This document shows positions 572 to 17,388 of a DNA stretch of 24,776 bases, in pieces; positions within the stretch are counted from its first letter, which is position 1, and the number at the start of each line of letters is the position of its first letter. The notes under the pieces are model-generated. The model saw only the letters and a list, made by a program, of their open reading frames with translations, was not told the origin of the DNA and did no database searches. The translations under genes and the position numbers were made by a program. Source of the DNA: an uncultured Paludibacter sp. (GTDB taxonomy: Bacteria; Bacteroidota; Bacteroidia; Bacteroidales; Paludibacteraceae). The stretch lies in assembly GCA_964412435.1 (NCBI GenBank), contig CAYPPC010000003.1, positions 7,634 through 32,409 on the forward strand, given 5' to 3'.

Positions 572-1226
572 GTACCTTAAAGAATTTTTAGATGGATTGA
601 ATAATCCACCAAAAGATATTGGCAAATACATCAAAGAAGAGTTTTCTGGAATCAGATACAAAAGTTATGGGACACCTGAGTTAGAAATGAAGTTATTACA
701 TTCTCTTTTTCTACAAATAAAAGCAGAGCATCCCGGGTTTGAATCTTTTGGTTGGGAGCAATGTAATTCATACAACGATAATTATTACCACTTCCAACTT
801 TTCTCTCTAACAGTAAATGAAAAGCTGGATATAGAGACTGATATTGATTTTTATTTTCCTCACCATGAAGATGATAAAATCACTTCAGATATCCTTTTCA
901 ATCATATCGAATATCCGGATCCGGATGAAATTGAATTTGCAAGAACAAATAATCTTGAATACGATAATGATGGTGTGCGAAACTTGAATTATAAAGATTT
1001 TATGAATTTCATGAAAGAGAAATATCACCATCTCGAGACTCCTACATTGAAGTTTATGGTAATTTTAAAGTTATTAGAAATTCATTTTGGTATGTATTAC
1101 TTCCTTTATACCTTTGGGAATGGTGTAAAAATCACAATTAAAACAGAAGGAGTTACTATAACTCAATTAGAAATTAATGAGATAGATGGTGGCGCGCCTT
1201 TAGTAGCAGATTTAGACGAACTCTAA
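561..1226 (+). CDS. Acidic hypothetical protein, probable partner of the DUF6915-like gene
   Basis: Long ORF in AT-rich DNA. ATG at 561 overlaps the end of the upstream gene (stop at 569-571); the track start at 549 is a TTG. Contains HPGFESFGWEQCNSYND and a C-terminal FGNGVKITIKTEGVTI segment. Confidence 0.75.
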   Translation: MRNKYLKEFLDGLNNPPKDIGKYIKEEFSGIRYKSYGTPELEMKLLHSLFLQIKAEHPGFESFGWEQCNSYNDNYYHFQLFSLTVNEKLDIETDIDFYFPHHEDDKITSDILFNHIEYPDPDEIEFARTNNLEYDNDGVRNLNYKDFMNFMKEKYHHLETPTLKFMVILKLLEIHFGMYYFLYTFGNGVKITIKTEGVTITQLEINEIDGGAPLVADLDEL

Positions 1227-1277
1227 CACCCAAAGCCCATTCTTAATTCTTCATTTATAATTCATAATTTCCAAACC

Positions 1278-4200
1278 ATGACCATCCAACAATACCTCAA
1301 AAATATAGACGAACGATACAAACTCGGTAATGCAACAGAACACACTTTTCGGGGTGATTTACAGCAATTGATTGAGAGCCTTTTACCGGAAGTGCAGGCA
1401 ACCAACGAACCAAAAAGGCAGAGCTGCGGCGCACCGGATTATATTTTGACTAAACGGGAGATCCCGGTGGGATATATTGAGGCGAAAGATCTGGGTGATG
1501 ATGATTTGGAGGGGAAGAAAAAATCGGGTAATAAGGAGCAGTTTGACCGTTACAAAGCATCGCTGACTAACCTGATATTTACCGATTACCTCGATTTTCA
1601 CTTTTACCAGGATGGTGAACTGACCACCAAAGTGGCGATTGCCGAGCTGACCGACAAGGGTATTCAACCCAAACCGGAGAATTTCTCAATTTTCGAAAAT
1701 TTGCTGAGGAACTTTACCACACACGTCAGCCAGACGATTAAAAGTCCTGCAAAACTGGCTGAAATGATGGCAGGAAAAGCAAGACTGCTGGCAGATATTA
1801 TCGAAAATGCACTGACCAGCGACGAGGATAATCACCTGGACAGTTCGCTGAAGGAGCAAATGCTCGCTTTTAAGGAGATTCTGATTCATGATATTACGCC
1901 CAAAGCATTTGCGGATGTTTATGCACAAACCATTGCTTACGGTATGTTTGCTGCCCGTTTGCACGATGACAGTTTAGGTAATTTCAGCCGTCAGGAAGCT
2001 GCCGAACTGATTCCCAAAACCAATCCATTTTTGAGACGACTTTTCAGCTATATTATCTGGCCGGATATTGACGACCGCATCAAATGGGTGGTGGATAACC
2101 TGGCGGAGATATTTCTGGCGACCAACGTCGGACAAATCTTGCAAGATTATGGAAAAGCGACCAAAATGGAGGATCCGATTATCCATTTTTATGAAACATT
2201 CCTGAGCGAATACGACCCAAAGCTTAGAAAATCGAGGGGCGTTTGGTACACGCCGCAACCAGTGGTGGAATTTATCGTGCGTGCGGTGGATGATATTCTA
2301 AAAACTGAATTTAACCTGCCGCAAGGACTTGCCGACACCAGCAAAACCAAAATTAAAGTAAATACACAGACTGCTGACAAACGCTCTCCCACAGGTTATA
2401 AACAGATAGAACAAGAAGTACACAAAGTGCAATTACTAGACCCTGCTACCGGAACAGGTACCTTTTTGGCAGAAACCGTAAAGCATATTTATAAAAAGTT
2501 CAAAGGACAGGAGGGCATCTGGAGCAGTTATGTAGATGAACATCTGATTCCGCGACTAAATGGTTTTGAGCTACTCATGGCGAGCTACGCCATGGCACAT
2601 TTAAAAATGGACTTACTGCTGCAAGAGACCGGTTACCAGGGTGCAGGTGATAAGCGATTTCGGATTTATCTCACCAACAGCTTAGAGGAGCACCACCCCG
2701 ATACCGCCACGCTTTTTGCCAACTGGCTGAGTACCGAAGCTAATGAAGCCAACCTGATTAAACGCGATACACCTGTGATGTGTGTGATTGGTAATCCGCC
2801 ATACAGTGGCGAAAGTGCCAATAAAGGTGAGTGGATTATGAACCTGATGGAGGATTATAAAAAGGAACCGGGCGGGAAAGAACGATTAAAAGAGCAAAAC
2901 TCTAAATTTATAAACGATGATTATGTGAAATTTATTCGTTTTAGCTCCCACCTGATAGAGAAAAACGGTGAGGGTGTATTAGCTTTTATTAATCCGCACG
3001 GTTTCTTGGATAATCCCACATTTAGAGGAATGCGCTGGCATTTATTAAAGAAATTCGATAAAATCTACACTATTGATTTACATGGCAATGCAAAGAAAAA
3101 GGAAACAGCACCGGATGGTTCAATAGATGTTAATGTGTTTGATATTGAACAAGGTGTTTCTATAAATCTGTTCATAAAAACAGGAAAGAAGAAAGTCAGT
3201 CAATTAGGAGAAGTGTTTCATTATGATTTATTTGGAAAAAGAGAGATTAAATATGAATTCTTATTAAGTAATAGTCTAAAAACAACGCCATATAAAAAAG
3301 TTGAGTTACAATCACCTCAGTTTTTTTTAATGCCTAAGGATTTTGAAAACAAAAATATTTACGATAAAGGTTTTGGGTTGAAAGATATTTTCATAGAATT
3401 TTCACTTGGTGTATTATCAAAAAATGACAGTGTAACAATAGAGTTTAATAAAAATGTCCTAAGCAAAACGATAGAAGATTTCAGAAATTTAACAGATTCA
3501 GAGTTGAGAATTATTTACAACCTAAAAAGTGATAGCAGAGATTGGATTCTAGCTAAAGCTAGAAATGACCTTATTAAAAATCATAGTGAAAATAATTATA
3601 AAAAGATTTCTTATCGACCATTTGATGAGCGTTGGACATATTTCACAGGTACTACTAAGGGATTTTTCGCATATAGCCAAGATAGAATTATGAAAAACAT
3701 GCGAAATAATAAAAACTATGCCTTAATATCTGGAAGGCAAGGTCAAGCTGTTGGTAATATGCAGTGGAATTTGTCTTTTATAACTAATACTATTTCTGAT
3801 CAAAACATTTATTATCGCGGTGGTGGAAGCGTGTTCCCTTTATATCTATACCCCGACTCTTCTCAACTCGAATTAGAAGAAAAAAGCGAACGAGTTCCCA
3901 ATTTGAATATGGAGATTGTAGATAAGATTGCTAAGGCTTTGCAGTTGGATTTTGTCCCCGAAAAAAGCGAGGAGGAGGTGAATATTGCGCCGATAGATAT
4001 CTTGGACTACATATACGCTGTGTTACATTCGCCTGCATACCGGGAGAAGTATAAGGAATTCCTAAAAATTGATTTTCCGCGTGTGCCTTATCCAAAAGAC
4101 AGAGATACATTTTGGGCATTGGTAGAGCTGGGCAGCCAGATTCGTCAGATTCATCTTCTGGAAAGTGATGTTGTGGAGGAGTATATCACCACGTATCCAA

Positions 4201-4493
4201 AAGCAGGAAATAATGAAGTGACACGCAAATTAACATTGCGTTCACCCGGATTTGTAGCTACGGAAGATGGTTTGGGGCAGGTTTGGATTAATGATGAGCA
4301 GTATTTTGATAATGTTCCTGAAACAGCCTGGAATTTCTATATTGGCGGTTATCAGCCGGCGCAAAAGTGGCTGAAAGATCGCGCTGGCAGAGTCCTCGAC
4401 TTTGAAGATATACTGCATTATCAGAAAATTATTGTTGCCCTAAGCGAAACAGACCGCTTAATGAAGGAGATTGATAAAATTGATTTTATATAG
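1278..4493 (+). CDS. Single-polypeptide Type IIG/ISP-like restriction-modification enzyme (PD-(D/E)xK nuclease + N6-adenine methyltransferase + C-terminal specificity domain), no helicase domain
   Basis: N-terminal GAPDY...GYIEAK nuclease motif; FYETFL..YDPKLRKSRGVWYTPQPVV; motif I LLDPATGTGTFL; motif IV GNPPY; C-terminal WNFYIGGYQPAQKWLKDR typical of the Type ISP C-terminal domain. Confidence 0.9.
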   Translation: MTIQQYLKNIDERYKLGNATEHTFRGDLQQLIESLLPEVQATNEPKRQSCGAPDYILTKREIPVGYIEAKDLGDDDLEGKKKSGNKEQFDRYKASLTNLIFTDYLDFHFYQDGELTTKVAIAELTDKGIQPKPENFSIFENLLRNFTTHVSQTIKSPAKLAEMMAGKARLLADIIENALTSDEDNHLDSSLKEQMLAFKEILIHDITPKAFADVYAQTIAYGMFAARLHDDSLGNFSRQEAAELIPKTNPFLRRLFSYIIWPDIDDRIKWVVDNLAEIFLATNVGQILQDYGKATKMEDPIIHFYETFLSEYDPKLRKSRGVWYTPQPVVEFIVRAVDDILKTEFNLPQGLADTSKTKIKVNTQTADKRSPTGYKQIEQEVHKVQLLDPATGTGTFLAETVKHIYKKFKGQEGIWSSYVDEHLIPRLNGFELLMASYAMAHLKMDLLLQETGYQGAGDKRFRIYLTNSLEEHHPDTATLFANWLSTEANEANLIKRDTPVMCVIGNPPYSGESANKGEWIMNLMEDYKKEPGGKERLKEQNSKFINDDYVKFIRFSSHLIEKNGEGVLAFINPHGFLDNPTFRGMRWHLLKKFDKIYTIDLHGNAKKKETAPDGSIDVNVFDIEQGVSINLFIKTGKKKVSQLGEVFHYDLFGKREIKYEFLLSNSLKTTPYKKVELQSPQFFLMPKDFENKNIYDKGFGLKDIFIEFSLGVLSKNDSVTIEFNKNVLSKTIEDFRNLTDSELRIIYNLKSDSRDWILAKARNDLIKNHSENNYKKISYRPFDERWTYFTGTTKGFFAYSQDRIMKNMRNNKNYALISGRQGQAVGNMQWNLSFITNTISDQNIYYRGGGSVFPLYLYPDSSQLELEEKSERVPNLNMEIVDKIAKALQLDFVPEKSEEEVNIAPIDILDYIYAVLHSPAYREKYKEFLKIDFPRVPYPKDRDTFWALVELGSQIRQIHLLESDVVEEYITTYPKAGNNEVTRKLTLRSPGFVATEDGLGQVWINDEQYFDNVPETAWNFYIGGYQPAQKWLKDRAGRVLDFEDILHYQKIIVALSETDRLMKEIDKIDFI

Positions 4494-4599: not shown

Positions 4600-4636
4600 A
4601 ATAAATAGGTGTCCACAAAACCGGACACCTTTTATT
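4600..4636. terminator. Bidirectional intrinsic terminator between the convergent RM gene and the lysine operon
   Basis: Stem AGGTGTCC (4607-4614) / GGACACCT (4623-4630), with A/T tracts on both sides. Confidence 0.75.
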
Positions 4637-4665: not shown

Positions 4666-5409
4666 CTACACAGTCATCCCGTCATCAACGCTTAAAACGG
4701 TTCCGTTGATATAGGCTGCTTCGTCTGATGAGAGGAACAGGTAGGCTGATGCAATCTCTTCCGGCTTTCCTAAACGTCCGCTTGGAACTTTTGCTTTCAT
4801 GGCATCAAGAATATTCTCAGGCATTTGGGCTACCATTTCGGTGGCGATAAATCCGGGAGCAATAGCATTTACTGTAATACCTTTACGTCCCAATTCACGA
4901 CCTAATGTTTTGGTCATACCAATAAGTCCTGATTTTGTTGCTACATAGTTAGTTTGTCCAAAGTTTCCATAAAGCCCAACCACAGAAGATGCATTCACAA
5001 TTCTACCGTAGTTTTTCATCAACATATATTCAGAGATAATTTTTGAGCAATAGAACACTCCTGTCAGGTTTACATCAATTACCTGCTGCCACATTTCGGG
5101 AGTCATCTTTTTCAATGAACTATCGCGGGTAATTCCGGCATTATTTATCAAAATATCAATGGAGCCGTACTTATCAAATACTGCTTTGGCAGCTGCTTCA
5201 ATCTCTCCGTAATTGGTGGTATTAACTTTGGCAAACATCGCTTCACCACCTTGTGATTCAAGTTGTTTTACGACCTCGTTACCAAGCTCCTCATTTAAGT
5301 CCCAAATAACAACTTTGGCACCCTCTTTGGCAAAAAGTTCGGCTGTTGCTTTTCCAATTCCGGCAGCACCACCGGTAATAATAGCCACTCTATTTTCTAA
5401 TCTTTTCAT
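4666..5409 (-). CDS. SDR, FabG/PhaB-like 3-oxoacyl/acetoacetyl-CoA reductase, i.e. probable (R)-3-hydroxybutyryl-CoA dehydrogenase
   Basis: TGGAAGIG Rossmann motif, NNAGITRD, NASS, GNFGQTNY, catalytic YVATK; Asp at the end of beta-2 (VIWDLN). Confidence 0.88.
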   Translation of the reverse strand: MKRLENRVAIITGGAAGIGKATAELFAKEGAKVVIWDLNEELGNEVVKQLESQGGEAMFAKVNTTNYGEIEAAAKAVFDKYGSIDILINNAGITRDSSLKKMTPEMWQQVIDVNLTGVFYCSKIISEYMLMKNYGRIVNASSVVGLYGNFGQTNYVATKSGLIGMTKTLGRELGRKGITVNAIAPGFIATEMVAQMPENILDAMKAKVPSGRLGKPEEIASAYLFLSSDEAAYINGTVLSVDDGMTV

Positions 5410-5438
5410 GATTTTAAATTTTCAATTTGAATATAAAA

Positions 5439-5843
5439 TTAAATAAACCGTGCGTCATTTTTCAGTCTCGCAGTACCTTCGATAACTACTTTTCCGTTCT
5501 CGTCTTCTAAAATACACTTTATAATCCCTGTATGCCGTTCGGTGTTGACCTCGGTAACCTCAAACTTGGCAGTGTAAGGTTGATCAACAAAAACAGGAGC
5601 CATAAACTTCATATCCTGATACATATAAATTGTACCTTCGCCCGGAAATTTAGTCCCAAAAACCATTGAAAACACAGAAGCAGAGTAAAATCCGTGAACT
5701 ATCGGACGTTTAAAGAAAGTTTTAGCGGCATATTCCGTATCGATATGAATCGGATTATTGTCACCGGTAATTTCGGCAAAAGTATTTACATTTTCCTGAG
5801 TAAAACTCAATTTATGTGTGTAGGTATCACCTTGTTTAATCAT
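5439..5843 (-). CDS. MaoC/PhaJ-like (R)-specific enoyl-CoA hydratase
   Basis: Hydratase-2 motif FAEITGDNNPIHID...RPIVHG and FPGEGTIYMYQDMKFMAPV. Confidence 0.88.
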   Translation of the reverse strand: MIKQGDTYTHKLSFTQENVNTFAEITGDNNPIHIDTEYAAKTFFKRPIVHGFYSASVFSMVFGTKFPGEGTIYMYQDMKFMAPVFVDQPYTAKFEVTEVNTERHTGIIKCILEDENGKVVIEGTARLKNDARFI

Positions 5844-5871
5844 AGTTATAATGTTTTATTGTTAATACTGA

Positions 5872-7083
5872 TTACTTGCAAATTTTAACGATCATCGCAT
5901 TACCCATTCCGCCACCAATGCACAAGCTGGCAAGACCAATGTCATTGCCTTCTCTCTTCATTTCGTGGATTAAGGAGACTAAAATTCTGTTTCCTGACGC
6001 TCCAATTGGGTGACCCAATGCAATGGCACCACCGTTTTTATTAGTTCTTTCGCAGAGCCAATCGTTAGTAACTCCGTGCTCTTCAACTAATAGTTTGTTT
6101 ACACCAAGCGACTGAGCTGCAAATGCTTCGTTCAATTCAAGAACTTCCACATCCTGCAATTTCATATCAGCCATCGTTAAAGCCTTTCTAATGGCAGGAA
6201 CAGGACCAAGACCCATAACATCAGGAGCAACTCCGGCTTGTCCTATACCAATAATTTCAACCATTGGCTCAAGATTATATTTTTTCATTGCTTCTTCTGA
6301 AACAACCAAAACGAAAGATGCACCATCGTTAATGCCGGAAGCATTGCCTGCAGTAACTGTTCCGTCTTTTTTGAAAGCAGACCGTAAACCGCCAAGTTTT
6401 TCCGGGTTGGTTGTTCTGTTGGGATATTCGTCGGTATCAAAGGTTATATCGCCTCTTCTATGCGGAATCACCACAGGAACAATCTCTTCTTTAAATTTTC
6501 CGCCGTCAATCGCAGTGATAGCCTTTTGTTGCGATTTGTAAGCAAACTCATCTTGCTCTTCTCTGCTGATATTATGGCGTTCAGCAATATTTTCGGCAGT
6601 GATGCCCATATGTAATTTTGAGAAAGCATCGGTTAATCCATCATAAACCATATGGTCAATCATCTTCACATCACCCATTTTCTGGCCATTTCTCATCACA
6701 TTTCCGGGAATGATAAATCCACCCATACTCATATTTTCGGTACCACCGGCCAACACAACCTCAGCCTGCCCGGCAACAATATCAGTATAAGCCTGCATAA
6801 CAGATTTCATTCCGCTACCGCAAATCATATTGATGCCATAAGCCGGAACCTCTTCAGGAATGCCGCTGTTGATAGAAATCTGACGGGCGATACCCTGACC
6901 AAAACCGGCCATTAAGATATTTCCAACAATAACTTCGTCGATATCAGCAGGGTTAATTTTTGTGTCGCTTAAAATTTGCTTTACAACCGGAACGGCTAAA
7001 TCGGCAGGATGTACATTTCCAACGGTTCCTAAAAACTTACCGATTGGAGTGCGTTTAGCTGCAACTATAAAAACTTTCTTCAT
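5872..7083 (-). CDS. thlA: Acetyl-CoA C-acetyltransferase (thiolase)
   Basis: RTPIG, catalytic NMICGSG, NEAFA, GHPIGASG, CIGGGMG. Confidence 0.95.
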   Translation of the reverse strand: MKKVFIVAAKRTPIGKFLGTVGNVHPADLAVPVVKQILSDTKINPADIDEVIVGNILMAGFGQGIARQISINSGIPEEVPAYGINMICGSGMKSVMQAYTDIVAGQAEVVLAGGTENMSMGGFIIPGNVMRNGQKMGDVKMIDHMVYDGLTDAFSKLHMGITAENIAERHNISREEQDEFAYKSQQKAITAIDGGKFKEEIVPVVIPHRRGDITFDTDEYPNRTTNPEKLGGLRSAFKKDGTVTAGNASGINDGASFVLVVSEEAMKKYNLEPMVEIIGIGQAGVAPDVMGLGPVPAIRKALTMADMKLQDVEVLELNEAFAAQSLGVNKLLVEEHGVTNDWLCERTNKNGGAIALGHPIGASGNRILVSLIHEMKREGNDIGLASLCIGGGMGNAMIVKICK

Positions 7084-8659: not shown

Positions 8660-10207
8660 CTATTTTTTCATTAAATCAATAAAAGGATTCAAATAACCGC
8701 TGCCCTTAGCAACAACTCCTTCCAAACCTTTACCGCCGTCTTTGGCACGCTTCACATCTCCAAAAATCCCTTTTTCCAGTGCATTAAAGAGACCTTCTGA
8801 TTCTACCTTTTCTATCAGTTCGATAGCGTTATCAAGTACAGTCTGGGCGCGTTTTTGGATAATGCCATCTTTTTTAAACTCCACCTCTTCACCAATATCT
8901 CTCATATTGTTAGAAACGTATTTTGCATTCTCAATAGCAAGATATCTGTCAGACATAAAAGGGGTGTGAATCGCCTCTGTAAGCATTCCAAGCAGAAGGA
9001 TTCCCTGATTGGTCCACACTGCAATTTCATTAAAGAGCGTATTTTGGATATGACCTTTGAATACATTTCCGGTCATATATTTGGTTGGCGGCATATATTT
9101 CAAAGGTGCTTTCGGGAAAATCTCTCTAAGCATCTGAGCTTGCGCCAATTCATACAAAAAGCCGTTTTTAAGTTCGGGATCCATTTCAAAGGCATGCCCC
9201 AGGCCCATTTGCTCCTCCGGAATACCGGCGATTAAAGCTAATTGCTCATTGATAAAGTCCGATGCCAAAACGGTGTGAGCTTGTTCAAAAGCATCAGCAG
9301 TGGTTAAGTAATTATCTTCACCGGTGTTTATAATCACTCCTGCAAAGCCGTTGATAACGCGGGAAAAGAACTGATCCACCAAAGTGCGCTGCATATTGAT
9401 ATCTCTGAACAAAATTCCGTAGAGAGCATCATTTAGCATTACGTCTAAGCCTTCCAATGCACCCATTGCAGCAATTTCGGGCATGCAAAGCCCGGAACAA
9501 TAGTTACACAAACGAATATACCTGCCAAGCTCCTCTCCCACTTCGTCCAGTTCTTTACGCATAATTCTGAAGTTTTCCTGAGTGGCAAAAGTACCGCCAA
9601 AACCTTCGGTAGTAGCACCATAAGGCACATAATCAAGCAGGCTTTGTCCGGTAGTTCTGATTACAGCAATGATATCAGCACCCTGACGAGCAGCGGCTTT
9701 TGCCTGAATTACGTCTTCGTAAATATTTCCGGTAGCAACAATGGCATAGAGATAAGGACGCTGAGCATCGCCTTGTTTTGCAATAATATCTTCGCGCCGT
9801 TTGCGATTTTGCTTTACTCTTTCGATGGTAGCATCCATATAGGGTTTCAGGGCTTTCAGAATATCCTCATCCGAATGCTTTTTGATGCTGAGCATATCCA
9901 ATTTATCAACCGTTATTTTTTCAGCAATTTCCTGCGGAGTGCCATGATTTTCGATAATGGCATTTCCCAAAAATCTCACAACGCCATCGGCAAGCAAGCC
10001 CTGTTCATTCATCTGATGTACCATTACGTTGGGCAATGGTACATCATATTCATCCACTCCGTCAATACCAAGCAAGCGACAAAGCGTCCTCTCTACCGCA
10101 ACGGTTGTATAGTTTTCTACAAAGTTCTGCACATCGTCAGCAATGCCTTTTGCGGCAAGTCGCGCTTTGTTTACTTTGTTAAAATCTAATCCTAATTTAC
10201 TGGTCAT
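8660..10207 (-). CDS. kamD: D-lysine/beta-lysine 5,6-aminomutase alpha subunit
   Basis: TTVAVERTLCRLLGIDG, IVATGNIYED, IRTTGQSLLDYVPYG, NYCSGLCMPEIA, KYMPPTKYMTG. Confidence 0.95.
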   Translation of the reverse strand: MTSKLGLDFNKVNKARLAAKGIADDVQNFVENYTTVAVERTLCRLLGIDGVDEYDVPLPNVMVHQMNEQGLLADGVVRFLGNAIIENHGTPQEIAEKITVDKLDMLSIKKHSDEDILKALKPYMDATIERVKQNRKRREDIIAKQGDAQRPYLYAIVATGNIYEDVIQAKAAARQGADIIAVIRTTGQSLLDYVPYGATTEGFGGTFATQENFRIMRKELDEVGEELGRYIRLCNYCSGLCMPEIAAMGALEGLDVMLNDALYGILFRDINMQRTLVDQFFSRVINGFAGVIINTGEDNYLTTADAFEQAHTVLASDFINEQLALIAGIPEEQMGLGHAFEMDPELKNGFLYELAQAQMLREIFPKAPLKYMPPTKYMTGNVFKGHIQNTLFNEIAVWTNQGILLLGMLTEAIHTPFMSDRYLAIENAKYVSNNMRDIGEEVEFKKDGIIQKRAQTVLDNAIELIEKVESEGLFNALEKGIFGDVKRAKDGGKGLEGVVAKGSGYLNPFIDLMKK

Positions 10208-10219
10208 CTATTTTGCAAA

Positions 10220-11251
10220 TTAATTATCTTGAATTTGTTTTTCTATCTCTTGAAATATATCGAAAACAGGAATATTTATCGCTTTCTCTACCGCTGAGCG
10301 CAAGATTTCCGGATCGAAATTATATCCCTCCGGGGATGTTGGATTTGTGCAAACTGCCAGCAGTTTTGCTTTTTGCAGCACCTCTATGCTCCCACCCCTG
10401 CGTATAAATTTTTTGAAACTTGCCGGCTCAACAAATATTTTTGAAAAATCACGTACTATCAGCTTTATCTTTGAGTCGCTTTGCTCCGCCAATATATTTT
10501 TCATAAAGCTTTCGGTTAAAGCACCGTTTACAAAAACATATTCGTACTTAGCAAACATTTCCGGTGAAATCTCAAAATCTAAAAACAGAGATTCGGTGAT
10601 TTTTTCGTAAGCCTCTCCACCTTTACTCAGGCCCCAAACTCCCTCCTGAATAGCATCACAAACAGTTATAAGCTGATCTTCAACCTGTTTAAGATTGATA
10701 AGTTCAGTCTGATACTTTACCCTTTTTACAAGCTGATCTAAATTGATAGAACAAGCAGCACCGGTACATAAAACCATGGCATCGGTAATGGCAGGCGAAG
10801 CAAGGCTCATACGAGACAAAGCACCGTCAACCAGAACCACATCGATATTGAAATTGTGCAGCTCGTTAATGCAGGATTGCAACCACAAAGAGTCGGAAGG
10901 GCCTGATAAAATCACTTTTCCCTCACTTTCAACCTTTGCGGTAATCAATGGACCAAGGGCAGTGAGTTTATTGCTAACCAGCAGAACTTTTGCAGCCAGC
11001 TCCCTCTCTTCAAAGTGTTTTTCGGAAGTGATAAAGTAATTGCCTTTTCGTAAGTTTATACGGGGTTTAAGAGTGTGGTACAAAACATCCCTCTCTTCAC
11101 CATCAACACCAATTGAAGTTACAGCAAGCCTCTTATTTGCCTTATGCAAGTTATCTAAAACATAATTTAAGCATGTGGTTTTTCCGGTATTTTTAGCCAT
11201 ACCAACGATTGCCACACTTTTATGTTTCAATATGTTTTGTAAAAAAGGCAT
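10220..11251 (-). CDS. kamB: KamB-like P-loop protein (putative 5,6-aminomutase reactivase component), 343 aa
   Basis: GMAKNTGKTT Walker A, VTSIGVDGE, LVDGALSR, NPTSP; lies between kamA and kamD. Start moved to ATG 11251 (MPFLQN) because the track start at 11419 overlaps kamA. Confidence 0.75.
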   Translation of the reverse strand: MPFLQNILKHKSVAIVGMAKNTGKTTCLNYVLDNLHKANKRLAVTSIGVDGEERDVLYHTLKPRINLRKGNYFITSEKHFEERELAAKVLLVSNKLTALGPLITAKVESEGKVILSGPSDSLWLQSCINELHNFNIDVVLVDGALSRMSLASPAITDAMVLCTGAACSINLDQLVKRVKYQTELINLKQVEDQLITVCDAIQEGVWGLSKGGEAYEKITESLFLDFEISPEMFAKYEYVFVNGALTESFMKNILAEQSDSKIKLIVRDFSKIFVEPASFKKFIRRGGSIEVLQKAKLLAVCTNPTSPEGYNFDPEILRSAVEKAINIPVFDIFQEIEKQIQDN

Positions 11252-11302
11252 CAAACAGGTTGTTTTATAGTTCGCATTTATATTGAAAAAAGAGAGTGAA
11301 AT

Positions 11303-11336
11303 AGCATAAAAACAAGGGGGTAATTGTCCCCTTATT
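11303..11336 (-). terminator. Intrinsic terminator-like hairpin between kamA and kamB
   Basis: Minus-strand RNA AAUAAGGGG-ACAAUUAC-CCCCUUGUU followed by UUUAUGCUAUUU, about 20 nt after the kamA stop. Confidence 0.6.
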
Positions 11337-11357
11337 TTATGATTTATCCCAAGAGTT

Positions 11358-12602
11358 CTATTTTTTGCTTCTCTCTTTTCTTTCCAGCCCGGCCGGCTCA
11401 ATAGCCAGCTTCTCTCCATTTAATAGTGCAGCAACTCCTTGAGAACGATTAGCCTCGCAATCATGACAATGGCACTCAGGCTTATAGTCAAGCGGCTGAG
11501 TATAAGTAGCAATTACGCCTTCGAAGTTTCTGAGCACCACCTTTCCCGGACTTTGAGAAATCAGATACTGAGGCATTACCGGAATTTTTCCTCCACCACC
11601 CGGAGCATCAACTACATAAGTGGGAACGGCGTAACCCGAAATATGGCCACGTAAGTTTTCTATTATCTCAATACCTCTTGAAACAGAAGTGCGGAAATGC
11701 TCTATGCCTACCGACAAGTCGCATTGGTAAATATAGTAAGGACGAATACGGTTTTTAACTAAACCAAGCACCAGCTCTTTCATCACTTGCGGGCAATCAT
11801 TAACGCCACGCAGCAATACAGTCTGATTTCCGATAGGTACTCCGGCATTTATAAGTTTAGTACAAGCTTCTACCGACTCAGGTGTAATCTCATCCGGATG
11901 ATTAAAATGCGTATTAAGCCAAATAGGGTGATATTTTTTTAGCATATCAACTAATCCGTCGGTAACACGTTGCGGGCAAACCACCGGGATTCGAGTTCCG
12001 ATTCTGATAATTTCAACATGCGGAATTTCTCTCAATCTCTGAATTATAGACTCTAACATGGCGTCGCTAACCATCAGGGCATCACCACCTGACAAAAGCA
12101 CATCTCTCACTTCTGGAGTTCTGGCAATATAATCTATACCTTGTTGAATACGTTCAGAGGGAGACTGTCTGTCGGTTTGTCCGGCAAATCTTCGGCGTGT
12201 ACAATGGCGGCAATACATTGAACACATATCAGTAATTAAAAACAAAACTCTGTCCGGATAACGGTGAGTAAGTCCAGGTACCGGTGAGTCTTCATCTTCA
12301 CTCAATGGGTCTAATAAATCTGCGTCAGATTGAAAAGCCTCGGCTCCGGTCGGGATACCTTGTTTTCTGATCGGGCAGTTTTTATTCTCCAAATCCATCA
12401 ATGAAAGGTAATAAGGAGTTATAGCCATACGAAGTTGTTTCAAAGCTTCTTTAACTCCCTGCTCATCTTCAGTACTTAGATTTGCGTATTTTTCTAAATC
12501 CTCTAAAGTCTCAATTCTGTTTCTGACTTGCCACTTCCAGTCGTTCCATTGTTCATCGGCAACATCCGGAAACAGTGCTTTTCTGTTCGAATTTGTGTTC
12601 AT
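11358..12602 (-). CDS. kamA: L-lysine 2,3-aminomutase (radical SAM)
   Basis: WNDWKWQ, HRYPDRVL, CSMYCRHC, SGGD, NTHFNHP, DAPGGGGKIP; C-terminal CHCHDC. Confidence 0.97.
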   Translation of the reverse strand: MNTNSNRKALFPDVADEQWNDWKWQVRNRIETLEDLEKYANLSTEDEQGVKEALKQLRMAITPYYLSLMDLENKNCPIRKQGIPTGAEAFQSDADLLDPLSEDEDSPVPGLTHRYPDRVLFLITDMCSMYCRHCTRRRFAGQTDRQSPSERIQQGIDYIARTPEVRDVLLSGGDALMVSDAMLESIIQRLREIPHVEIIRIGTRIPVVCPQRVTDGLVDMLKKYHPIWLNTHFNHPDEITPESVEACTKLINAGVPIGNQTVLLRGVNDCPQVMKELVLGLVKNRIRPYYIYQCDLSVGIEHFRTSVSRGIEIIENLRGHISGYAVPTYVVDAPGGGGKIPVMPQYLISQSPGKVVLRNFEGVIATYTQPLDYKPECHCHDCEANRSQGVAALLNGEKLAIEPAGLERKERSKK

Positions 12603-12667: not shown

Positions 12668-13711
12668 TTAAGCGTATAACTCTTCGAAAACTCTCCTAAG
12701 TTTTTCACTTTCTCTAAGAATTTCGAGTGTAATTTCTGCATGACCTTTTGTGTAACCGTTTCCTACAACCATAGTCACCTCGCTGCCAACACCTTCGGCT
12801 CCAAGTGCAGCTTTGGTAAAGCTTGTGGCCATAGAGAAGAAATAGACCACACCACTATCTTTTGTACAAAGAATGCTGGCCATCTCAGTATCAGGGATAT
12901 TTACATTATTGATAGTAATGTCAGCCATTTCGCCATTGCTAAGTTCAGCTACTTTCTCCATTGTGGGAACAGGATGAGTTGCATTTGCCTGAAGCACATG
13001 ATCGCAAACATCCAGGTCTATCAGACGTTTCATGCTACTTTCACTGTACTCTATGCCAATAACTTTACCGGTAATGCCGGCACGTTTTTTAGCTTCGTAG
13101 CAGCATAACATACCTGATTTTCCACCGGCACCAATAATAACCACGGTATCGCCGGGTTTTACGAGTTTTGCGGTTTGAGCAGGTGCACCGGCAACATCAA
13201 GAGCTGAAAGAACGAGTTTTTCAGAAATATCGGCAGGTATTTTGGCATAAATACCGCTTTCAAAAAGAATGGCTTTTCCTTCGATATCAACCTGATCCAC
13301 CTCTTTACGAATCTCTTTGATCTTGTCGATACGAAGCGGAGTAAGCGACAAAGAGACCAGAGTGGCAATTTTATCTCCAACTTTCAGGTCAATCTTACCC
13401 TCCAGAGCAGAGCCAATCTTTTCGACTTTGCCTAAAAGCATTCCGCCTGAACCAGTAACCGGGTTGCGATGTTTTCCCTGTTTTTCAACAATATCAAACA
13501 TTATTTCCTTAATTCTCTCTTCGTCGTCACCGGCTTGCTCCTTAATTTGAGTAAAACTGGCAGAGTCAATATTAAGGGTAATCACATCTATTAATATCTC
13601 GTTGTCGTACAAGATACCCATATTGTTATCCAGTTTATCTGCCGGTTGCGGCAACACTCCCTGCGGTGCTAAGACCCGATGTGTTCCGTACCTGTTCCCT
13701 TTTTTTTGCAT
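12668..13711 (-). CDS. kdd: L-erythro-3,5-diaminohexanoate dehydrogenase
   Basis: KGNRYGTHRV, LNIDSASF, NPVTGSGGML, TLVSLSLTPL, LDVAGAPAQ, GAGGKSG, FFSMATSF. Confidence 0.93.
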   Translation of the reverse strand: MQKKGNRYGTHRVLAPQGVLPQPADKLDNNMGILYDNEILIDVITLNIDSASFTQIKEQAGDDEERIKEIMFDIVEKQGKHRNPVTGSGGMLLGKVEKIGSALEGKIDLKVGDKIATLVSLSLTPLRIDKIKEIRKEVDQVDIEGKAILFESGIYAKIPADISEKLVLSALDVAGAPAQTAKLVKPGDTVVIIGAGGKSGMLCCYEAKKRAGITGKVIGIEYSESSMKRLIDLDVCDHVLQANATHPVPTMEKVAELSNGEMADITINNVNIPDTEMASILCTKDSGVVYFFSMATSFTKAALGAEGVGSEVTMVVGNGYTKGHAEITLEILRESEKLRRVFEELYA

Positions 13712-13729: not shown

Positions 13730-14554
13730 CTAAATCGGTTTAAGATCTAAAATTTCTCTTGCTTCGGCAGGAGTAGCAATTCCACGTCCTAATTCATTAG
13801 CTATACGAACTACTTTTTCAACCAGTTCGCCATTAGATTTAGCTAAAACTCCTCTTGAAAGATACAGGTTATCTTCAAATCCTACTCTAACATTCCCACC
13901 CATAGCAATTGCATGAACAGCCATAGGAAATTCGTGACGACCCACTCCTGTTACACACCAGGTTGAACCTTGCGGAATGGCATTTACCATCCAGGTAAGA
14001 TTGTTGATATTTGCACTGGCGCAACCCAATACGCCCAAAACAAAGTTGAAATGCAGCTGTCCGGCAGGCGCTTCACCTCTTTTTATCAAATGTAAGATAG
14101 AGTCCAAATGCCCCATTTCAAAGCACTCATACTCAGGCTTAATGTTGTTCTCCATCATACGCTTACCAAAATCTCTCATCATGGGCAAAGTGTTTTCAAA
14201 CACTTCATCCCCAAAATTGCAGGTACCGCAATCTAAGGTAGCCATCTCTAATGGCAGCTCGGTGGGTTGCAAGCGCTCTTCTGAAGTCATACCAACAGCT
14301 CCACCGGTAGATGGAATAAGAATTACATCAGGAATCACCTCTAAAATTGCATCAATAACCTCTTTATAACGCGCTTTGCTTTGTGTTGGCGTTCCGTCAT
14401 CTTCACGAACATGAATATGAATAATAGCAGCACCTGCTTCATAAGCAGATTTTGCTTCACGAACCATCTCTTCAACCGTATAAGGAACTGCCGGGTTCAT
14501 CTCTTTGGTAACCTCAGCTCCACAAATAGCCGCTGTGATAATTAGTTTTTCCAT
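13730..14554 (-). CDS. kce: 3-keto-5-aminohexanoate cleavage enzyme (BKACE/DUF849)
   Basis: KLIITAAICGAE, HIHVR, STGG, GTCNFG, KPEYECFE, VRVGFEDN. Confidence 0.93.
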   Translation of the reverse strand: MEKLIITAAICGAEVTKEMNPAVPYTVEEMVREAKSAYEAGAAIIHIHVREDDGTPTQSKARYKEVIDAILEVIPDVILIPSTGGAVGMTSEERLQPTELPLEMATLDCGTCNFGDEVFENTLPMMRDFGKRMMENNIKPEYECFEMGHLDSILHLIKRGEAPAGQLHFNFVLGVLGCASANINNLTWMVNAIPQGSTWCVTGVGRHEFPMAVHAIAMGGNVRVGFEDNLYLSRGVLAKSNGELVEKVVRIANELGRGIATPAEAREILDLKPI

Positions 14555-14571: not shown

Positions 14572-14973
14572 TTAGACTTCTTTGTTTTTTCTTTGATTTG
14601 CTTTTGGTACTACGCAAGTACCGCTCGCTTTACAAACAATAACTGGTTCTTCAAGAAAATCGGCAGCTGAAGAGCTGATATCCGGACGAGGTGCCACAAC
14701 TTTTTTAGCTACAAAACTCATTTTTCTCGAAGAGTTACCCTTTTCGGTAATTTCGCCATAAGCTTCAATAAAATCTCCGGCATAAACAGGGGCTGTAAAC
14801 TGAACATTATCGTAAGCAACGAACAGACCCTCATCGCCATCGCTCTTAATTAACAATTCGGTGGCAACGTCGCCAAAAAGCGCAAGCATTTTTGAGCCAT
14901 CTACTAAATTACCTCCGTAATGAGCATCTTTCGAACTCATTCTTAGCCGTATCATTGATGTAATTTTTCCCAT
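14572..14973 (-). CDS. kal: 3-aminobutyryl-CoA ammonia-lyase (hotdog fold)
   Basis: [48 protein letters not shown]. Confidence 0.93.
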
Positions 14974-15005: not shown

Positions 15006-15653
15006 TTAATGCACAATATAATTTACAAAAATTGCCGGTGTGTGCACACACTCAGCTTCAATTTCGTCGATTTCAAGCAGGTTTTCAACTTCTGCAATAA
15101 CCAGATCAGCAGCCATCGCCATAAGCGGGTTAAAGTTTTGAGAAGTACCTCTATATTTTAAGTTTCCGATTTTATCACCCCAGGTAGCAGCAACTATGGC
15201 TATCTCAGCTCTTAAAGGAGCTTCAAGCAGATATTCCACCCCATCCACAGTAACTTTTTGCTTATTTTCTTCCACAACAGTGCCTATGCCGGTTTTGGTC
15301 AAAACGCCACCCAAGCCATTTCCGGCACAACGGATTTGCTCTGCCAAAGTACCTTGAGGAACAAATTGCACCTCAATTTCACTCTCATGCATTAATTGAC
15401 CGGTAACAGGATTTGTTCCGATATGGGAAGTGATAACTTTTTTAACCTGACGATTAACGATTAACTTGCCTAAACCCACTTCAGGAAAAGCGGTATCATT
15501 GCAAATGATAGTCAGGTTTTTCACATTTTTCTCCACCAGGAGATCTATAATTCTTTTAGGGTCTCCATTACCCAGAAACCCACCAATCATAATAGTAGCG
15601 CCATCCTTGATATGAGCTACAGCCTCTTCAATGGTTATAAGTTTGTTTTTCAT
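15006..15653 (-). CDS. atoD: Acetoacetate/butyrate CoA-transferase subunit A
   Basis: DGATIMIGGF, ICNDT, SHIGTNP, PQGTLAEQIRCAG, NFNPLMAMAAD. Confidence 0.93.
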   Translation of the reverse strand: MKNKLITIEEAVAHIKDGATIMIGGFLGNGDPKRIIDLLVEKNVKNLTIICNDTAFPEVGLGKLIVNRQVKKVITSHIGTNPVTGQLMHESEIEVQFVPQGTLAEQIRCAGNGLGGVLTKTGIGTVVEENKQKVTVDGVEYLLEAPLRAEIAIVAATWGDKIGNLKYRGTSQNFNPLMAMAADLVIAEVENLLEIDEIEAECVHTPAIFVNYIVH

Positions 15654-15826: not shown

Positions 15827-15834
15827 CAAAGATA
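15827..15834 (-). promoter_or_regulatory. Bacteroidetes -7 element (TATCTTTG) upstream of atoD
   Basis: Exact TAnnTTTG match 174 nt upstream of atoD; -33 element weak. Confidence 0.4.
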
Positions 15835-16138: not shown

Positions 16139-17329
16139 CTAACTCTCCCCCTGCACATTTTTCAGGTTCGGCAGAAAATAGGCAACCAAGCCTAAAAGTG
16201 GTAGAAAAGCGGTGATATGGTAAACAAAATTGACGCTTGTTAAATCAGCCACAAAACCCAGCACGGCAGAACCCAAGCCACCCATCCCAAAGGCAAAACC
16301 ATAAAACAGTCCGGAAACCATACCTAACTTTTTGGGCAACAGTTCCTGTGCATAGACAATAATTGCCGGGAAGGCTGATGAAATGATCAGGCCAATCAGA
16401 ACAATAAATATAGCTGTGAAAGTCTCATCCAGATAAGGCAGGGCAAGCGTAAAAGGCGCAGCACCCAAAATGGAGAACCAGATCACCGGCTTACGTCCAA
16501 AACGGTCACCAAAATAGCCGCCCAAAAGTGTGCCTAATGCAGATGCAATCAGGAAATAGAAAAGATAGACCTGAGCTCTTACCTCGGTAAAGTGGAATTT
16601 ATCCAGCGTATAAAACTGAAAATAGCTGGTGATACTGGCGGTGTAGAAAAATTTCGAGAAAATCAGAATCAACAGAATAGCTACCGACATTTTGATTTTT
16701 CGGGATGGAAAATTGGGAGGATTGATTACTTTCTGCTTCGAATTTTGTGAGAATCTGATAACCTGCCTGCGCCAGATACCGATAAAAACCAAAATAGCCA
16801 TCGCAACCAGAGCTACGCTTAAAAACCAGATAATATGTTGCTGTCCATTCGGAATAACAATCAGAGCCACTAAAAGCGGCGAAAGCGCCACACCGGTATT
16901 TCCGCCAATTTGAAAAATCGATTGCGCCAGGCTGCGCTTGCCTCCTGATGCCAGAAAAGCAATTCGCGCAGACTCCGGATGAAAAACCGATGAACCGATG
17001 CCCACCAGCGTAACACCAAATAAAATCCACAAATACGACGGCGCAAAAGCCAGTGTCACAATACCCAGAGAGGAGAAAAACATCCCAACAACCTGCGAAA
17101 AAGGTTTAGGGTTTTTATCTGTATAAAAGCCCACCAGCGGCTGAAATATCGATGCTGACAGCTGAAAGCAGAGGGTGATAATCCCAATCTGAGCCATCGA
17201 CAAACTGAATTTTTGTTCTAATTGCGGATATATGGCTGGTATAATGCCCTGAATCAAATCATTTAGCACATAGGCAAGTGATACAGCTATAAGAACAGGA
17301 TAAGCGGTCCTTTTCAAATCAATTTTCAA
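16139..17329 (-). CDS. fsr: MFS transporter, Fsr (fosmidomycin-resistance)-like
   Basis: LNDLIQ, QPLVGFYTD, GSSVFHPES, GGKRSLAQSIFQIGGNTG, DRFGRK, VYAQEL, GLFYGFAFGMGGLG; TTG start. Confidence 0.88.
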   Translation of the reverse strand: MKIDLKRTAYPVLIAVSLAYVLNDLIQGIIPAIYPQLEQKFSLSMAQIGIITLCFQLSASIFQPLVGFYTDKNPKPFSQVVGMFFSSLGIVTLAFAPSYLWILFGVTLVGIGSSVFHPESARIAFLASGGKRSLAQSIFQIGGNTGVALSPLLVALIVIPNGQQHIIWFLSVALVAMAILVFIGIWRRQVIRFSQNSKQKVINPPNFPSRKIKMSVAILLILIFSKFFYTASITSYFQFYTLDKFHFTEVRAQVYLFYFLIASALGTLLGGYFGDRFGRKPVIWFSILGAAPFTLALPYLDETFTAIFIVLIGLIISSAFPAIIVYAQELLPKKLGMVSGLFYGFAFGMGGLGSAVLGFVADLTSVNFVYHITAFLPLLGLVAYFLPNLKNVQGES

Positions 17330-17380: not shown

Positions 17381-17388
17381 CAAAGATA
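17381..17388 (-). promoter_or_regulatory. Bacteroidetes -7 element (TATCTTTGCC) for fsr
   Basis: Exact TAnnTTTG match about 50 nt upstream of the start; a TTTG lies 23 nt further upstream. Confidence 0.55.

What the first reader, a model, noticed from the sequence alone, without database searches (positions are those of the whole stretch)
4666..7083. Lysine-fermentation operon ends in a thiolase + (R)-hydratase + SDR module instead of the butyrate-forming module
Seen: downstream of kamDE-atoA, co-oriented and 28-51 bp apart, lie thiolase, a MaoC/PhaJ hydratase and a PhaB/FabG-like SDR. No bcd, etfAB, crotonase or hbd gene is in the window. Established: lysine fermenters such as Porphyromonas gingivalis, Fusobacterium and Clostridium sticklandii reduce the crotonyl-CoA made by Kal to butyryl-CoA via Bcd/Etf. 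As I recall, the otherwise collinear P. gingivalis cluster continues atoA-bcd-etfB-etfA-crt-hbd. Inference: here crotonyl-CoA is hydrated to (R)-3-hydroxybutyryl-CoA and oxidised to acetoacetyl-CoA, then to acetyl-CoA. That would be a non-butyrogenic lysine-to-acetate route through an R-stereospecific branch, suited to H2-producing/syntrophic or respiring growth. Alternatively (R)-3HB-CoA is the CoA donor for AtoDA and 3-hydroxybutyrate is excreted. There is no phaC in the window, so PHB storage is less likely.
Basis: partly seen in the sequence, partly recalled or inferred. Interest (0 to 1): 0.78.

Follow-up and report, generated by a model that had tools for sequence, protein, structure and literature searches.

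The report
R-type crotonyl-CoA module in lysine operon

Summary
On the minus strand, atoD-kal-kce-kdd-kamA-kamB-kamD-kamE-atoA is followed at 28-51 bp spacing by thiolase, a 134-aa MaoC/PhaJ hydratase and a 247-aa SDR, then a strong terminator.

The hydratase+SDR pair sits where a species of the same genus carries crt-hbd. Among 41 high-quality lysine-operon genomes of the order, 11 have this MaoC, 16 have Hbd and none has both. So the pair replaces Crt-Hbd, not Bcd-Etf. In 15 related loci bcd-etfB-etfA follows the SDR directly, and 10 of 11 MaoC-bearing genomes hold a Bcd orthologue.

The SDR looks NAD(H)-dependent: it has Asp37, and its nearest solved relatives are an NADH-selective FabG homologue and the yeast MFE-2 (3R)-hydroxyacyl-CoA dehydrogenase.

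In this genome, an 82%-complete MAG, I found no ACAD, ETF, crotonase or Ter. None of 24 genomes of its family has a butyrate-type Bcd. An acetate-only, NADH-yielding lysine route therefore stays open at roughly even odds, but it is not shown.

Verdict: a new variant of a known kind, a widespread non-orthologous displacement that I did not find described in the papers I could search.

The parts
16139..17329 (-). MFS transporter gene upstream of the operon. A TAnnTTTG motif lies at 17381-17388. Its link to the pathway is unproven.
   Evidence: MFS_1 E 5e-40; motif
15827..15834 (-). Bacteroidetes-type -7 promoter motif (TATCTTTG), about 175 nt upstream of atoD. Candidate operon promoter.
   Evidence: The motif count in the window is not above chance, so this is only a candidate.
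15006..15653 (-). atoD, CoA-transferase subunit A
   Evidence: TIGR02429 218 bits (cut-off 128.5); PF01144 E 1e-61
14572..14973 (-). kal, 3-aminobutyryl-CoA ammonia lyase (makes crotonyl-CoA)
   Evidence: NF052388 193 bits (cut-off 160)
13730..14554 (-). [quoted passage not shown]
   Evidence: NF052387 418 bits (cut-off 382)
12668..13711 (-). kdd, 3,5-diaminohexanoate dehydrogenase
   Evidence: NF052381 273 bits (cut-off 200)
11358..12602 (-). kamA, lysine 2,3-aminomutase
   Evidence: TIGR03820 609 bits (cut-off 525)
10220..11419 (-). kamB, reactivase subunit. This is the longest ORF; the true start is probably near 11250. No kamC follows.
   Evidence: NF052386 339 bits, matching residues 69-388; KamC not found in the MAG
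8660..10207 (-). kamD, lysine 5,6-aminomutase alpha subunit
   Evidence: NF052384 915 bits
7859..8650 (-). kamE, lysine 5,6-aminomutase beta subunit (B12-binding)
   Evidence: NF052385 404 bits
7135..7797 (-). atoA, CoA-transferase subunit B
   Evidence: TIGR02428 318 bits (cut-off 243.6)
5872..7083 (-). thl, acetoacetyl-CoA thiolase. The catalytic Cys (ICGSG), His (GHPIGASG) and Cys (CIGGG) are all present.
5439..5843 (-). maoC/phaJ-like (R)-specific enoyl-CoA hydratase. Hydratase-2 motif F-AE-I-T-G-D-N-N-P-I-H. The Asp and His are conserved in 46 of 46 homologues.
   Evidence: PF01575 E 9e-20; best solved relative 1IQ6 PhaJ, E 3e-22
4666..5409 (-). Classical SDR, predicted NAD(H)-dependent (3R)-hydroxyacyl-CoA dehydrogenase / acetoacetyl-CoA reductase. 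Features: GGAAGIG, Asp37, Ser141-Tyr155-Lys159.
4607..4630 (.). Bidirectional intrinsic terminator hairpin (9 pairs, then a T-run) 36 nt after the SDR stop. It ends the operon and faces the convergent restriction-modification gene.

Best explanation
The last three genes encode a thiolase, an (R)-specific enoyl-CoA hydratase (hydratase 2 / PhaJ type) and an NAD(H)-linked (3R)-hydroxyacyl-CoA dehydrogenase. Together they interconvert crotonyl-CoA, (R)-3-hydroxybutyryl-CoA, acetoacetyl-CoA and 2 acetyl-CoA. The hydratase+SDR pair is a non-orthologous, opposite-stereochemistry replacement for crotonase (Crt) plus (S)-3-hydroxybutyryl-CoA dehydrogenase (Hbd). Those two enzymes form an optional accessory tail of Bacteroidales lysine-fermentation operons. 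The module is a reversible C4 redox shunt. Kal delivers crotonyl-CoA and AtoDA delivers acetoacetyl-CoA. The shunt can push acetoacetyl-CoA towards crotonyl-CoA and butyrate when reducing power is in excess. It can also oxidise crotonyl-CoA to acetyl-CoA when NADH is needed or no reductase is present. It is not an alternative to Bcd-EtfAB, with which it is usually linked. Shown here: gene identities, catalytic motifs, conserved synteny, and a complementary distribution with Hbd. Inferred: substrate, stereochemistry, NADH preference and direction of flux.
For: The species G019, same genus, has kamB-kamC-kamD-kamE-atoA-thl-crt-hbd, with crt-hbd exactly where the window has maoC-SDR. 27 of 66 MaoC-centred loci show (atoA-)thl-maoC(-SDR) beside lysine genes, and 15 continue directly into bcd-etfB-etfA. 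Among 41 genomes of the order that are at least 90% complete and carry kamE, 11 have the MaoC orthologue, 16 have an Hbd orthologue and 0 have both. One-sided Fisher P is 0.0014, not corrected for relatedness. Two genera hold both types in different species. A Bcd orthologue is present in 10 of 11 MaoC+ and 15 of 16 Hbd+ genomes. The module type changes at least twice for each type on a KamE+AtoA tree. The MaoC catalytic Asp and His are intact and invariant in 46 homologues; SDR Asp37 is kept in 31 of 33 and the Ser-Tyr-Lys triad in 33 of 33. The best solved relatives of the SDR are 4NBU and 4NBW (E 1e-83) and the (3R)-hydroxyacyl-CoA dehydrogenase of yeast MFE-2, 2ET6. 4NBU is described as NADH-selective and NAD-bound (PMC5249140, PMC5264612). 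Vital et al. 2014 (PMC3994512) read the crt-hbd genes co-located with Porphyromonas lysine operons as using acetoacetyl-CoA from lysine fermentation.
Against: There is no biochemical evidence: substrate, stereochemistry and cofactor are inferred from sequence alone. NCBIfam scores the SDR just above one FabG equivalog cut-off (306 against 296 bits), so an acyl-ACP role is not formally excluded. The pair also occurs away from lysine genes, for example in G026 next to a U32 peptidase and in L025, L031, L032 and others. It may therefore have a wider role. Co-transcription with kamDE is inferred only from short spacers, the lack of an internal terminator and a single terminal terminator. No RNA data were available.
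Confidence: 0.78

Rival explanations
1. One reading: there is no crotonyl-CoA reductase, so the module runs oxidatively. The route is crotonyl-CoA to (R)-3HB-CoA to acetoacetyl-CoA to 2 acetyl-CoA. AtoDA activates acetoacetate using acetyl-CoA as the CoA donor. Net reaction: lysine + 4 H2O gives 3 acetate + 2 NH3 + 4[H], with 2 ATP through Pta-AckA. The NADH is disposed of through hydrogenase or the respiratory chain, helped by H2 scavengers in a digester.
For: No ACAD, ETF, crotonase or Ter-type reductase was found in the MAG by HMM or tblastn. None of 19 same-genus and 5 same-family genomes has a butyrate-type Bcd; they have only a roughly 570-aa ACAD. The operon ends at a terminator. The window operon and that of G019 (same genus, different species) fall in different clades, and G019 (93% complete) also lacks Bcd. 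The compact relatives L036 and L041 run atoA-thl-maoC-SDR-atoD-kal with no bcd, and their genomes show no short Bcd. Beside RNase R, where G003 of the same genus has ACAD-etfAB, this genome has korAB instead. The genome does encode pta and ackA, a NuoF-linked [FeFe]-hydrogenase and Nqr. The window's DNA is held by bioreactor and wastewater metagenomes. AtoAD was shown to use acetyl-CoA plus acetoacetate in vitro (PMC3149608).
Against: The MAG is only 81.8% complete, in 518 contigs. All 11 related genomes tested have EtfAB. Every same-genus genome at least 90% complete has the long ACAD, while 7 of 8 less complete ones lack it. Its absence here may therefore be an assembly or binning gap, and the long ACAD-Etf might reduce crotonyl-CoA. 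10 of 11 high-quality MaoC genomes do have Bcd. Oxidation of 3HB-CoA with NAD+ is uphill and needs low H2 or another sink.
Confidence: 0.45
2. Reductive, butyrogenic use in this organism. Acetoacetyl-CoA is reduced by the SDR with NADH and dehydrated by MaoC to crotonyl-CoA. Crotonyl-CoA is then reduced by a Bcd-Etf that is unassembled, or by the genus-typical long ACAD-EtfAB. This gives extra butyrate and ferredoxin reduction.
For: This is the configuration of most relatives: bcd-etfBA is adjacent in 15 loci and Bcd is present in 10 of 11 MaoC genomes. NADH-type cofactor prediction suits a fermentative reductase, like Hbd. Vital et al. propose this flow for crt-hbd in Porphyromonas.
Against: No ACAD or ETF of any kind is in the assembly. 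No short Bcd occurs anywhere in the family. The substrate of the long ACAD is unknown.
Confidence: 0.4
3. The SDR is a housekeeping FabG, and MaoC is a dehydratase of fatty-acid or PHA metabolism that merely sits next to the operon.
For: NF004198 FabG equivalog 306 bits, cut-off 296.
Against: TIGR01830 FabG scores below its cut-off. A second FabG-like gene with the GAARGIG motif lies on contig C24. Synteny with thl, atoA and bcd-etf is conserved in 27 loci. The distribution is complementary to Hbd. No PhaC_N match.
Confidence: 0.04
4. The SDR is a 3-hydroxybutyrate dehydrogenase acting on free acetoacetate from Kce, or (R)-3HB-CoA donates its CoA through AtoDA. Either way 3-hydroxybutyrate is excreted as an electron sink.
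For: Kce releases free acetoacetate. The SDR matches the 3-hydroxybutyrate dehydrogenase model at 214 bits.
Against: That score is below the model's cut-off of 258 and well below the FabG and acetoacetyl-CoA-reductase scores. The SDR is constantly paired with an acyl-CoA hydratase and usually with bcd. This rival does not explain MaoC.
Confidence: 0.05

Closest known systems
thl-crt-hbd (acetyl-CoA to crotonyl-CoA arm) co-located with lysine operons in Porphyromonas, Fusobacterium and other Bacteroidales
   Same: Same position after atoA(-thl), same net chemistry (acetoacetyl-CoA to and from crotonyl-CoA), same frequent linkage to bcd-etfBA (PMC3994512).
   Different: The protein families are unrelated: hot-dog MaoC instead of crotonase, and a classical SDR instead of the 3HCDH family. 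The intermediate is the R isomer instead of the S isomer.
PhaA-PhaB-PhaJ/CroR, the R-route from acetyl-CoA to crotonyl-CoA in PHA metabolism and at the entry to the ethylmalonyl-CoA pathway (from my own knowledge)
   Same: Thiolase, R-specific acetoacetyl-CoA reductase and R-specific hydratase. MaoC's best solved relative is Aeromonas caviae PhaJ, 1IQ6.
   Different: The PhaB equivalog cut-offs are not met (261 against 302 bits; 227 against 418). The SDR carries Asp37 and lacks the basic residue, so NADH rather than NADPH is predicted. No PhaC or Ccr is present. The setting is an anaerobic amino-acid fermentation operon.
Peroxisomal multifunctional enzyme type 2 (hydratase 2 + (3R)-hydroxyacyl-CoA dehydrogenase)
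   Same: Same two activities and the same two folds. The SDR aligns to both dehydrogenase domains of Candida tropicalis MFE-2 (2ET6) and shares the NNAGI-RD and GLYGNFGQ-NY motifs.
   Different: Here there are two separate small genes, not one fused protein, and the predicted substrate is short-chain (C4). This is a bacterial anaerobe.
Kat variant of lysine fermentation (3-aminobutyryl-CoA aminotransferase; Perret et al. 2011, PMC3149608)
   Same: Another digester variant that reaches acetoacetyl-CoA without Bcd. It also relies on AtoDA using acetyl-CoA. Those authors flagged the missing hbd/crt step as 'enigmatic'.
   Different: Here kal is present, and the bypass runs through crotonyl-CoA hydration and oxidation rather than transamination.
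FabG homologues 4NBU and 4NBW; 4NBU, from Bacillus sp. SG-1, is reported as NADH-selective
   Same: E about 1e-83 over the full length. The Asp after strand beta-2 is shared.
   Different: Those proteins were studied as FabG substitutes. Their native context is not a lysine operon.

Membership tests
(R)-specific enoyl-CoA hydratase (PhaJ / MaoC, hydratase 2) | Single hot-dog MaoC dehydratase domain of about 130-160 aa | tested here: met
   PF01575 E 9e-20, residues 10-103 of 134; 1IQ6 E 3e-22
(R)-specific enoyl-CoA hydratase (PhaJ / MaoC, hydratase 2) | Hydratase-2 motif with catalytic Asp and His (G-D-x-N-P-[LIV]-H) | tested here: met
   GDNNPIH at residues 27-33; Asp28 and His33 invariant in 46 homologues
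(R)-specific enoyl-CoA hydratase (PhaJ / MaoC, hydratase 2) | Makes (R)-3-hydroxyacyl-CoA from trans-2-enoyl-CoA | not testable with these tools
   Needs an enzyme assay with chiral analysis
Acetoacetyl-CoA reductase PhaB | Passes the PhaB models' curated cut-offs | tested here: not met
   TIGR01829 260.7 bits against 302.1; NF009546 227 against 418
3-oxoacyl-ACP reductase FabG | Passes the FabG equivalog cut-offs | tested here: inconclusive
   NF004198 306.4 bits against 296 (passes); TIGR01830 291.8 against 297.75 (fails); NF004197 272.7 against 332 (fails)
3-oxoacyl-ACP reductase FabG | NADPH-binding signature (basic residue in the Gly motif or after beta-2) | tested here: not met
   GGAAGIG and VVIWD37L; Asp37 in 31 of 33 orthologues; nearest structure 4NBU is NADH-selective
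Classical SDR (3R)-hydroxyacyl-CoA dehydrogenase (MFE-2-like) | TGxxxGxG, NNAG and the Ser-Tyr-Lys triad, with an acidic residue after beta-2 | tested here: met
Thiolase II (acetyl-CoA C-acetyltransferase) | Thiolase N and C domains, with the Cys, His and Cys catalytic residues | tested here: met
   TIGR01930 450 bits against 240.6; residues seen
Canonical lysine-to-acetate+butyrate fermentation (Kreimeyer et al. 2007 pathway) | KamA, KamDE, Kdd, Kce, Kal, AtoDA and Thl | tested here: met
   All above NCBIfam cut-offs
Canonical lysine-to-acetate+butyrate fermentation (Kreimeyer et al. 2007 pathway) | Butyryl-CoA dehydrogenase with EtfAB | tested here: not met
   No match in the window or in the 81.8%-complete MAG. 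Absence from the organism itself is not proven.
PHA synthesis cluster | PHA synthase PhaC | tested here: not met
   PF07167 no match. Class III/IV synthases lack this domain, so the test is partial.

The most novel reading that the evidence does not exclude
This organism, and a few digester Bacteroidales with compact bcd-less operons such as L036 and L041, ferments lysine without any crotonyl-CoA reductase. Crotonyl-CoA is oxidised through an R-specific, NAD-linked beta-oxidation-like branch. The products are 3 acetate, 2 NH3 and 2 NADH (released as H2 or passed to the quinone pool) with 2 ATP per lysine. This would be a syntrophy-friendly, non-butyrogenic lysine fermentation.
Probability: 0.42. 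Interest if true: 0.65.

Novelty: new variant of a known kind. Interest (0 to 1): 0.5.

Why it matters
Catalogues of butyrate pathways, such as Vital et al. 2014, score Hbd and crotonase as markers. An R-type MaoC+SDR pair doing the same job would be missed or misnamed as FabG. Here 11 of 41 lysine-operon Bacteroidales carry it instead of Hbd. It offers a candidate for the 'enigmatic' link between acetoacetyl-CoA and crotonyl-CoA that Perret et al. 2011 noted in digester lysine fermenters lacking hbd and crt. It also supplies a natural NADH-linked R-route, useful for engineering C4 pathways. If the bcd-less versions are real, lysine degradation in digesters may yield acetate and H2 rather than butyrate, which changes carbon and electron budgets.

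Tried and rejected
RNA evidence: no RNA holder was listed for the window, so co-transcription could not be tested. Read laying was not used because only contig-level DNA runs were offered.

Deletion test: genes flanking bcd-etfBA in the closest relatives (L024, L023, L069) have no syntenic counterparts on the window's contig. A clean deletion could be neither shown nor excluded.

Literature: searches combining lysine fermentation with MaoC, R-specific hydratase and Bacteroidales returned no paper describing this module. This covers only the open-access library. The original paper on the NADH-dependent FabG structures was not held, so I relied on two citing papers.

Sigma-70 promoter scan: not above shuffles (34 found, 31.6 expected), and not suited to Bacteroidetes.

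Contig misbinning, rejected: FtcD on the same contig is 65-82% identical to same-genus genomes and 58-65% identical to other families.

PHB storage, rejected: no PhaC_N match.

Ter/FabV-type reductase: no match, but the control genomes did not match either, so this blank is weak.

Structure and complex predictions were not run, because sequence-level matches to solved enzymes were already clear and I make no binding claim.
Full report
**Observation.** The window carries a 12-gene minus-strand operon: atoD (15653-15006), kal, kce, kdd, kamA, kamB, kamD, kamE, atoA (7797-7135), thl (7083-5872), a 134-aa MaoC-domain gene (5843-5439) and a 247-aa SDR gene (5409-4666).
- All lysine-pathway genes pass NCBIfam equivalog cut-offs.
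- The last three genes are separated by 28-51 bp.
- No terminator-like site lies in the spacers between atoA, thl, maoC and the SDR gene.
- The best terminator in the region is a bidirectional 9-pair hairpin at 4607-4630, 36 nt after the SDR stop.
- A Bacteroidetes-type -7 motif lies about 175 nt upstream of atoD. None lies in the last three spacers.
- No bcd, etf, crt or hbd gene is in the window or on its contig.

**What the three proteins are.**
- The thiolase has both thiolase domains and the catalytic Cys, His and Cys.
- The MaoC protein carries the hydratase-2 motif GDNNPIH. Its catalytic Asp and His are invariant in 46 homologues. Its best solved relative is the (R)-specific enoyl-CoA hydratase PhaJ of Aeromonas caviae (1IQ6, E 3e-22).
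- The SDR has the classical TGxxxGxG, NNAG and Ser-Tyr-Lys features.
- Its Gly motif is GGAAGIG, with no basic residue, and an Asp follows strand beta-2 (VVIWD37L). That Asp is kept in 31 of 33 orthologues. This is the usual signature of NAD(H) rather than NADP(H) use, which I take from established SDR knowledge.
- The SDR's nearest solved relatives are the FabG homologues 4NBU and 4NBW (E about 1e-83). Two papers describe 4NBU as NAD-bound and NADH-selective.
- It also aligns to the NAD-dependent (3R)-hydroxyacyl-CoA dehydrogenase domains of yeast MFE-2 (2ET6).
- It fails the PhaB cut-offs. It passes one of three FabG equivalog cut-offs, by 10 bits.
- A separate FabG-like gene exists on another contig.

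The pair therefore looks like a split, short-chain version of hydratase 2 plus (3R)-hydroxyacyl-CoA dehydrogenase, using NADH.

**Comparative evidence.** The genus is mostly devoid of the lysine operon: 2 of 20 genomes have kamD.
- The other carrier, G019, has kamB-kamC-kamD-kamE-atoA-thl-crt-hbd. Its crotonase and Hbd sit exactly where the window has maoC-SDR.
- A scan of species-representative genomes with the MaoC protein returned 66 loci. 27 of them show (atoA-)thl-maoC(-SDR) beside lysine genes. Sources include termite gut, digesters, sediment, rumen and an oral isolate.
- In 15 of the 66 loci, bcd-etfB-etfA follows the pair directly or after one or two genes.

I then took all 41 kamE-bearing genomes of the order that are at least 90% complete (40, plus G019) and read their operon tails.
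- The tails are modular.
- Genome-wide, 11 of the 41 have the MaoC orthologue, 16 have an Hbd orthologue, none has both and 14 have neither. One-sided Fisher P is 0.0014, uncorrected for relatedness.
- Two genera contain both types in different species.
- A Bcd orthologue (at least 75% identical to that of L024) is present in 10 of 11 MaoC genomes and 15 of 16 Hbd genomes.
- On a KamE+AtoA tree, well-supported branches force at least two changes of each module type. The window's operon is separated from that of G019 by a well-supported branch.
- The neighbouring FtcD gene is clearly of the host genus.

The operon is therefore accessory and probably horizontally acquired, and the two species of this genus that carry it have operons of different lineages.

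**Meaning.** This is the pattern of a non-orthologous gene displacement: maoC-SDR replaces crt-hbd, not bcd-etf.
- The hydratase/dehydrogenase pair, of either stereochemistry, is optional for the core pathway, since 14 lysine-operon genomes have neither.
- It links the two C4 products of the pathway: crotonyl-CoA from Kal, and acetoacetyl-CoA from AtoDA.
- Vital et al. 2014 read the co-located crt-hbd of Porphyromonas as feeding lysine-derived acetoacetyl-CoA into Bcd-Etf for extra energy conservation. The R-type pair can do the same.
- It can equally run oxidatively.

**Is this organism non-butyrogenic?** Evidence for absence of a reductase:
- In the window's own assembly I found no ACAD, ETF, crotonase or Ter, by HMM or by tblastn with relatives' proteins.
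- No same-genus genome (19) or same-family genome (5) has a butyrate-type Bcd. They carry only a roughly 570-aa ACAD with EtfAB.
- Beside RNase R, where G003 of the same genus has that ACAD-etfAB, this genome has korAB.
- Two related operons, L036 and L041, are compact and lack bcd. Their genomes show no short Bcd.

The genome could handle the oxidative route. It has pta and ackA (with an hbd-like gene between them), a NuoF-linked [FeFe]-hydrogenase and Nqr. Its DNA is held by bioreactor and wastewater metagenomes.

The stoichiometry would be lysine + 4 H2O giving 3 acetate + 2 NH3 + 4[H], with two net acetyl-CoA going to ATP. AtoDA would use acetyl-CoA as donor, an activity shown in vitro by Perret et al..

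Evidence against concluding absence:
- The MAG is 81.8% complete, in 518 contigs.
- Every related genome tested has EtfAB.
- The long ACAD is found in every same-genus genome that is at least 90% complete, but in only 1 of 8 less complete ones. Its absence here may well be an assembly or binning effect.
- The substrate of the long ACAD is unknown.

I put the acetate-only reading at about 0.4-0.45.

**Literature.** In the open-access library I found no description of a MaoC+SDR module in lysine or butyrate operons.
- Perret et al. 2011 described a different bcd-independent variant (Kat). They remarked that the enzymes linking acetoacetyl-CoA and crotonyl-CoA were undetectable in digester lysine fermenters. 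The module described here is a candidate for that gap in Bacteroidetes.
- A digester metagenome paper states in passing that lysine-derived crotonyl-CoA may be degraded to acetate by beta-oxidation.

**Verdict.** The solid result is a widespread R-stereochemistry, NADH-type replacement of Crt-Hbd in Bacteroidales lysine operons. The claim that it replaces the butyrate-forming step is wrong for the family and unresolved for this genome.

Noticed in passing
window 10207-10220; whole MAG: kamC, the MutS-like reactivase ATPase, is missing between kamB and kamD. It is not found elsewhere in the MAG; the only hit is a MutS2-like gene at about 30% identity on C24. The closest relative, L024, also has no room for it (551-bp gap), while most other operons have kamB-kamC.
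   Followed up: partly
window 11309-11338 (minus strand): An 11-pair hairpin followed by a T-run lies in the kamA-kamB spacer, inside the operon. It could be an attenuator, a partial terminator or an RNA-stability element.
   Followed up: no
L103:1800-5069 (own genome, contig C20): The order is pta, then a divergent 3-hydroxyacyl-CoA dehydrogenase-like gene (319 aa, 207 bits against the Hbd cut-off of 408), then ackA. An Hbd-like gene sandwiched between the two acetate-forming genes is unexplained.
   Followed up: no
L144 (own genome C367), C92 and C115: A NuoF-like HydB sits directly upstream of a [FeFe]-hydrogenase HydA that is split over two contig ends. A second 457-aa hydrogenase lies on C31. 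The Rnf/Nqr-family hits on C115 belong to an Nqr operon, since NqrA is present.
   Followed up: partly
genus-wide: The roughly 570-aa ACAD with EtfAB is found in every same-genus genome at least 90% complete, but in only 1 of 8 below 90%. This locus seems systematically lost in poorer MAGs, or there is a sub-clade without it.
   Followed up: no
L011:9073-10281 (G026): The maoC-SDR pair also occurs alone, next to a U32 peptidase and an Nqr operon, in a genome whose kamDE-atoA lies on another contig. The pair is a mobile two-gene unit.
   Followed up: partly
L039, L053, L054: Several related operons carry two tandem kdd paralogues, about 78% and about 60% identical to the window's Kdd.
   Followed up: no
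window 164-4493: A DUF6915 gene pair and a Type ISP/IIG restriction-modification enzyme converge on the same bidirectional terminator as the operon. This defence island marks the end of synteny with related operons.
   Followed up: no
tree: The window's KamE+AtoA sits on a long terminal branch (0.49 against a median of 0.12). It does not group with the operon of G019, which suggests separate acquisitions within the genus.
   Followed up: partly
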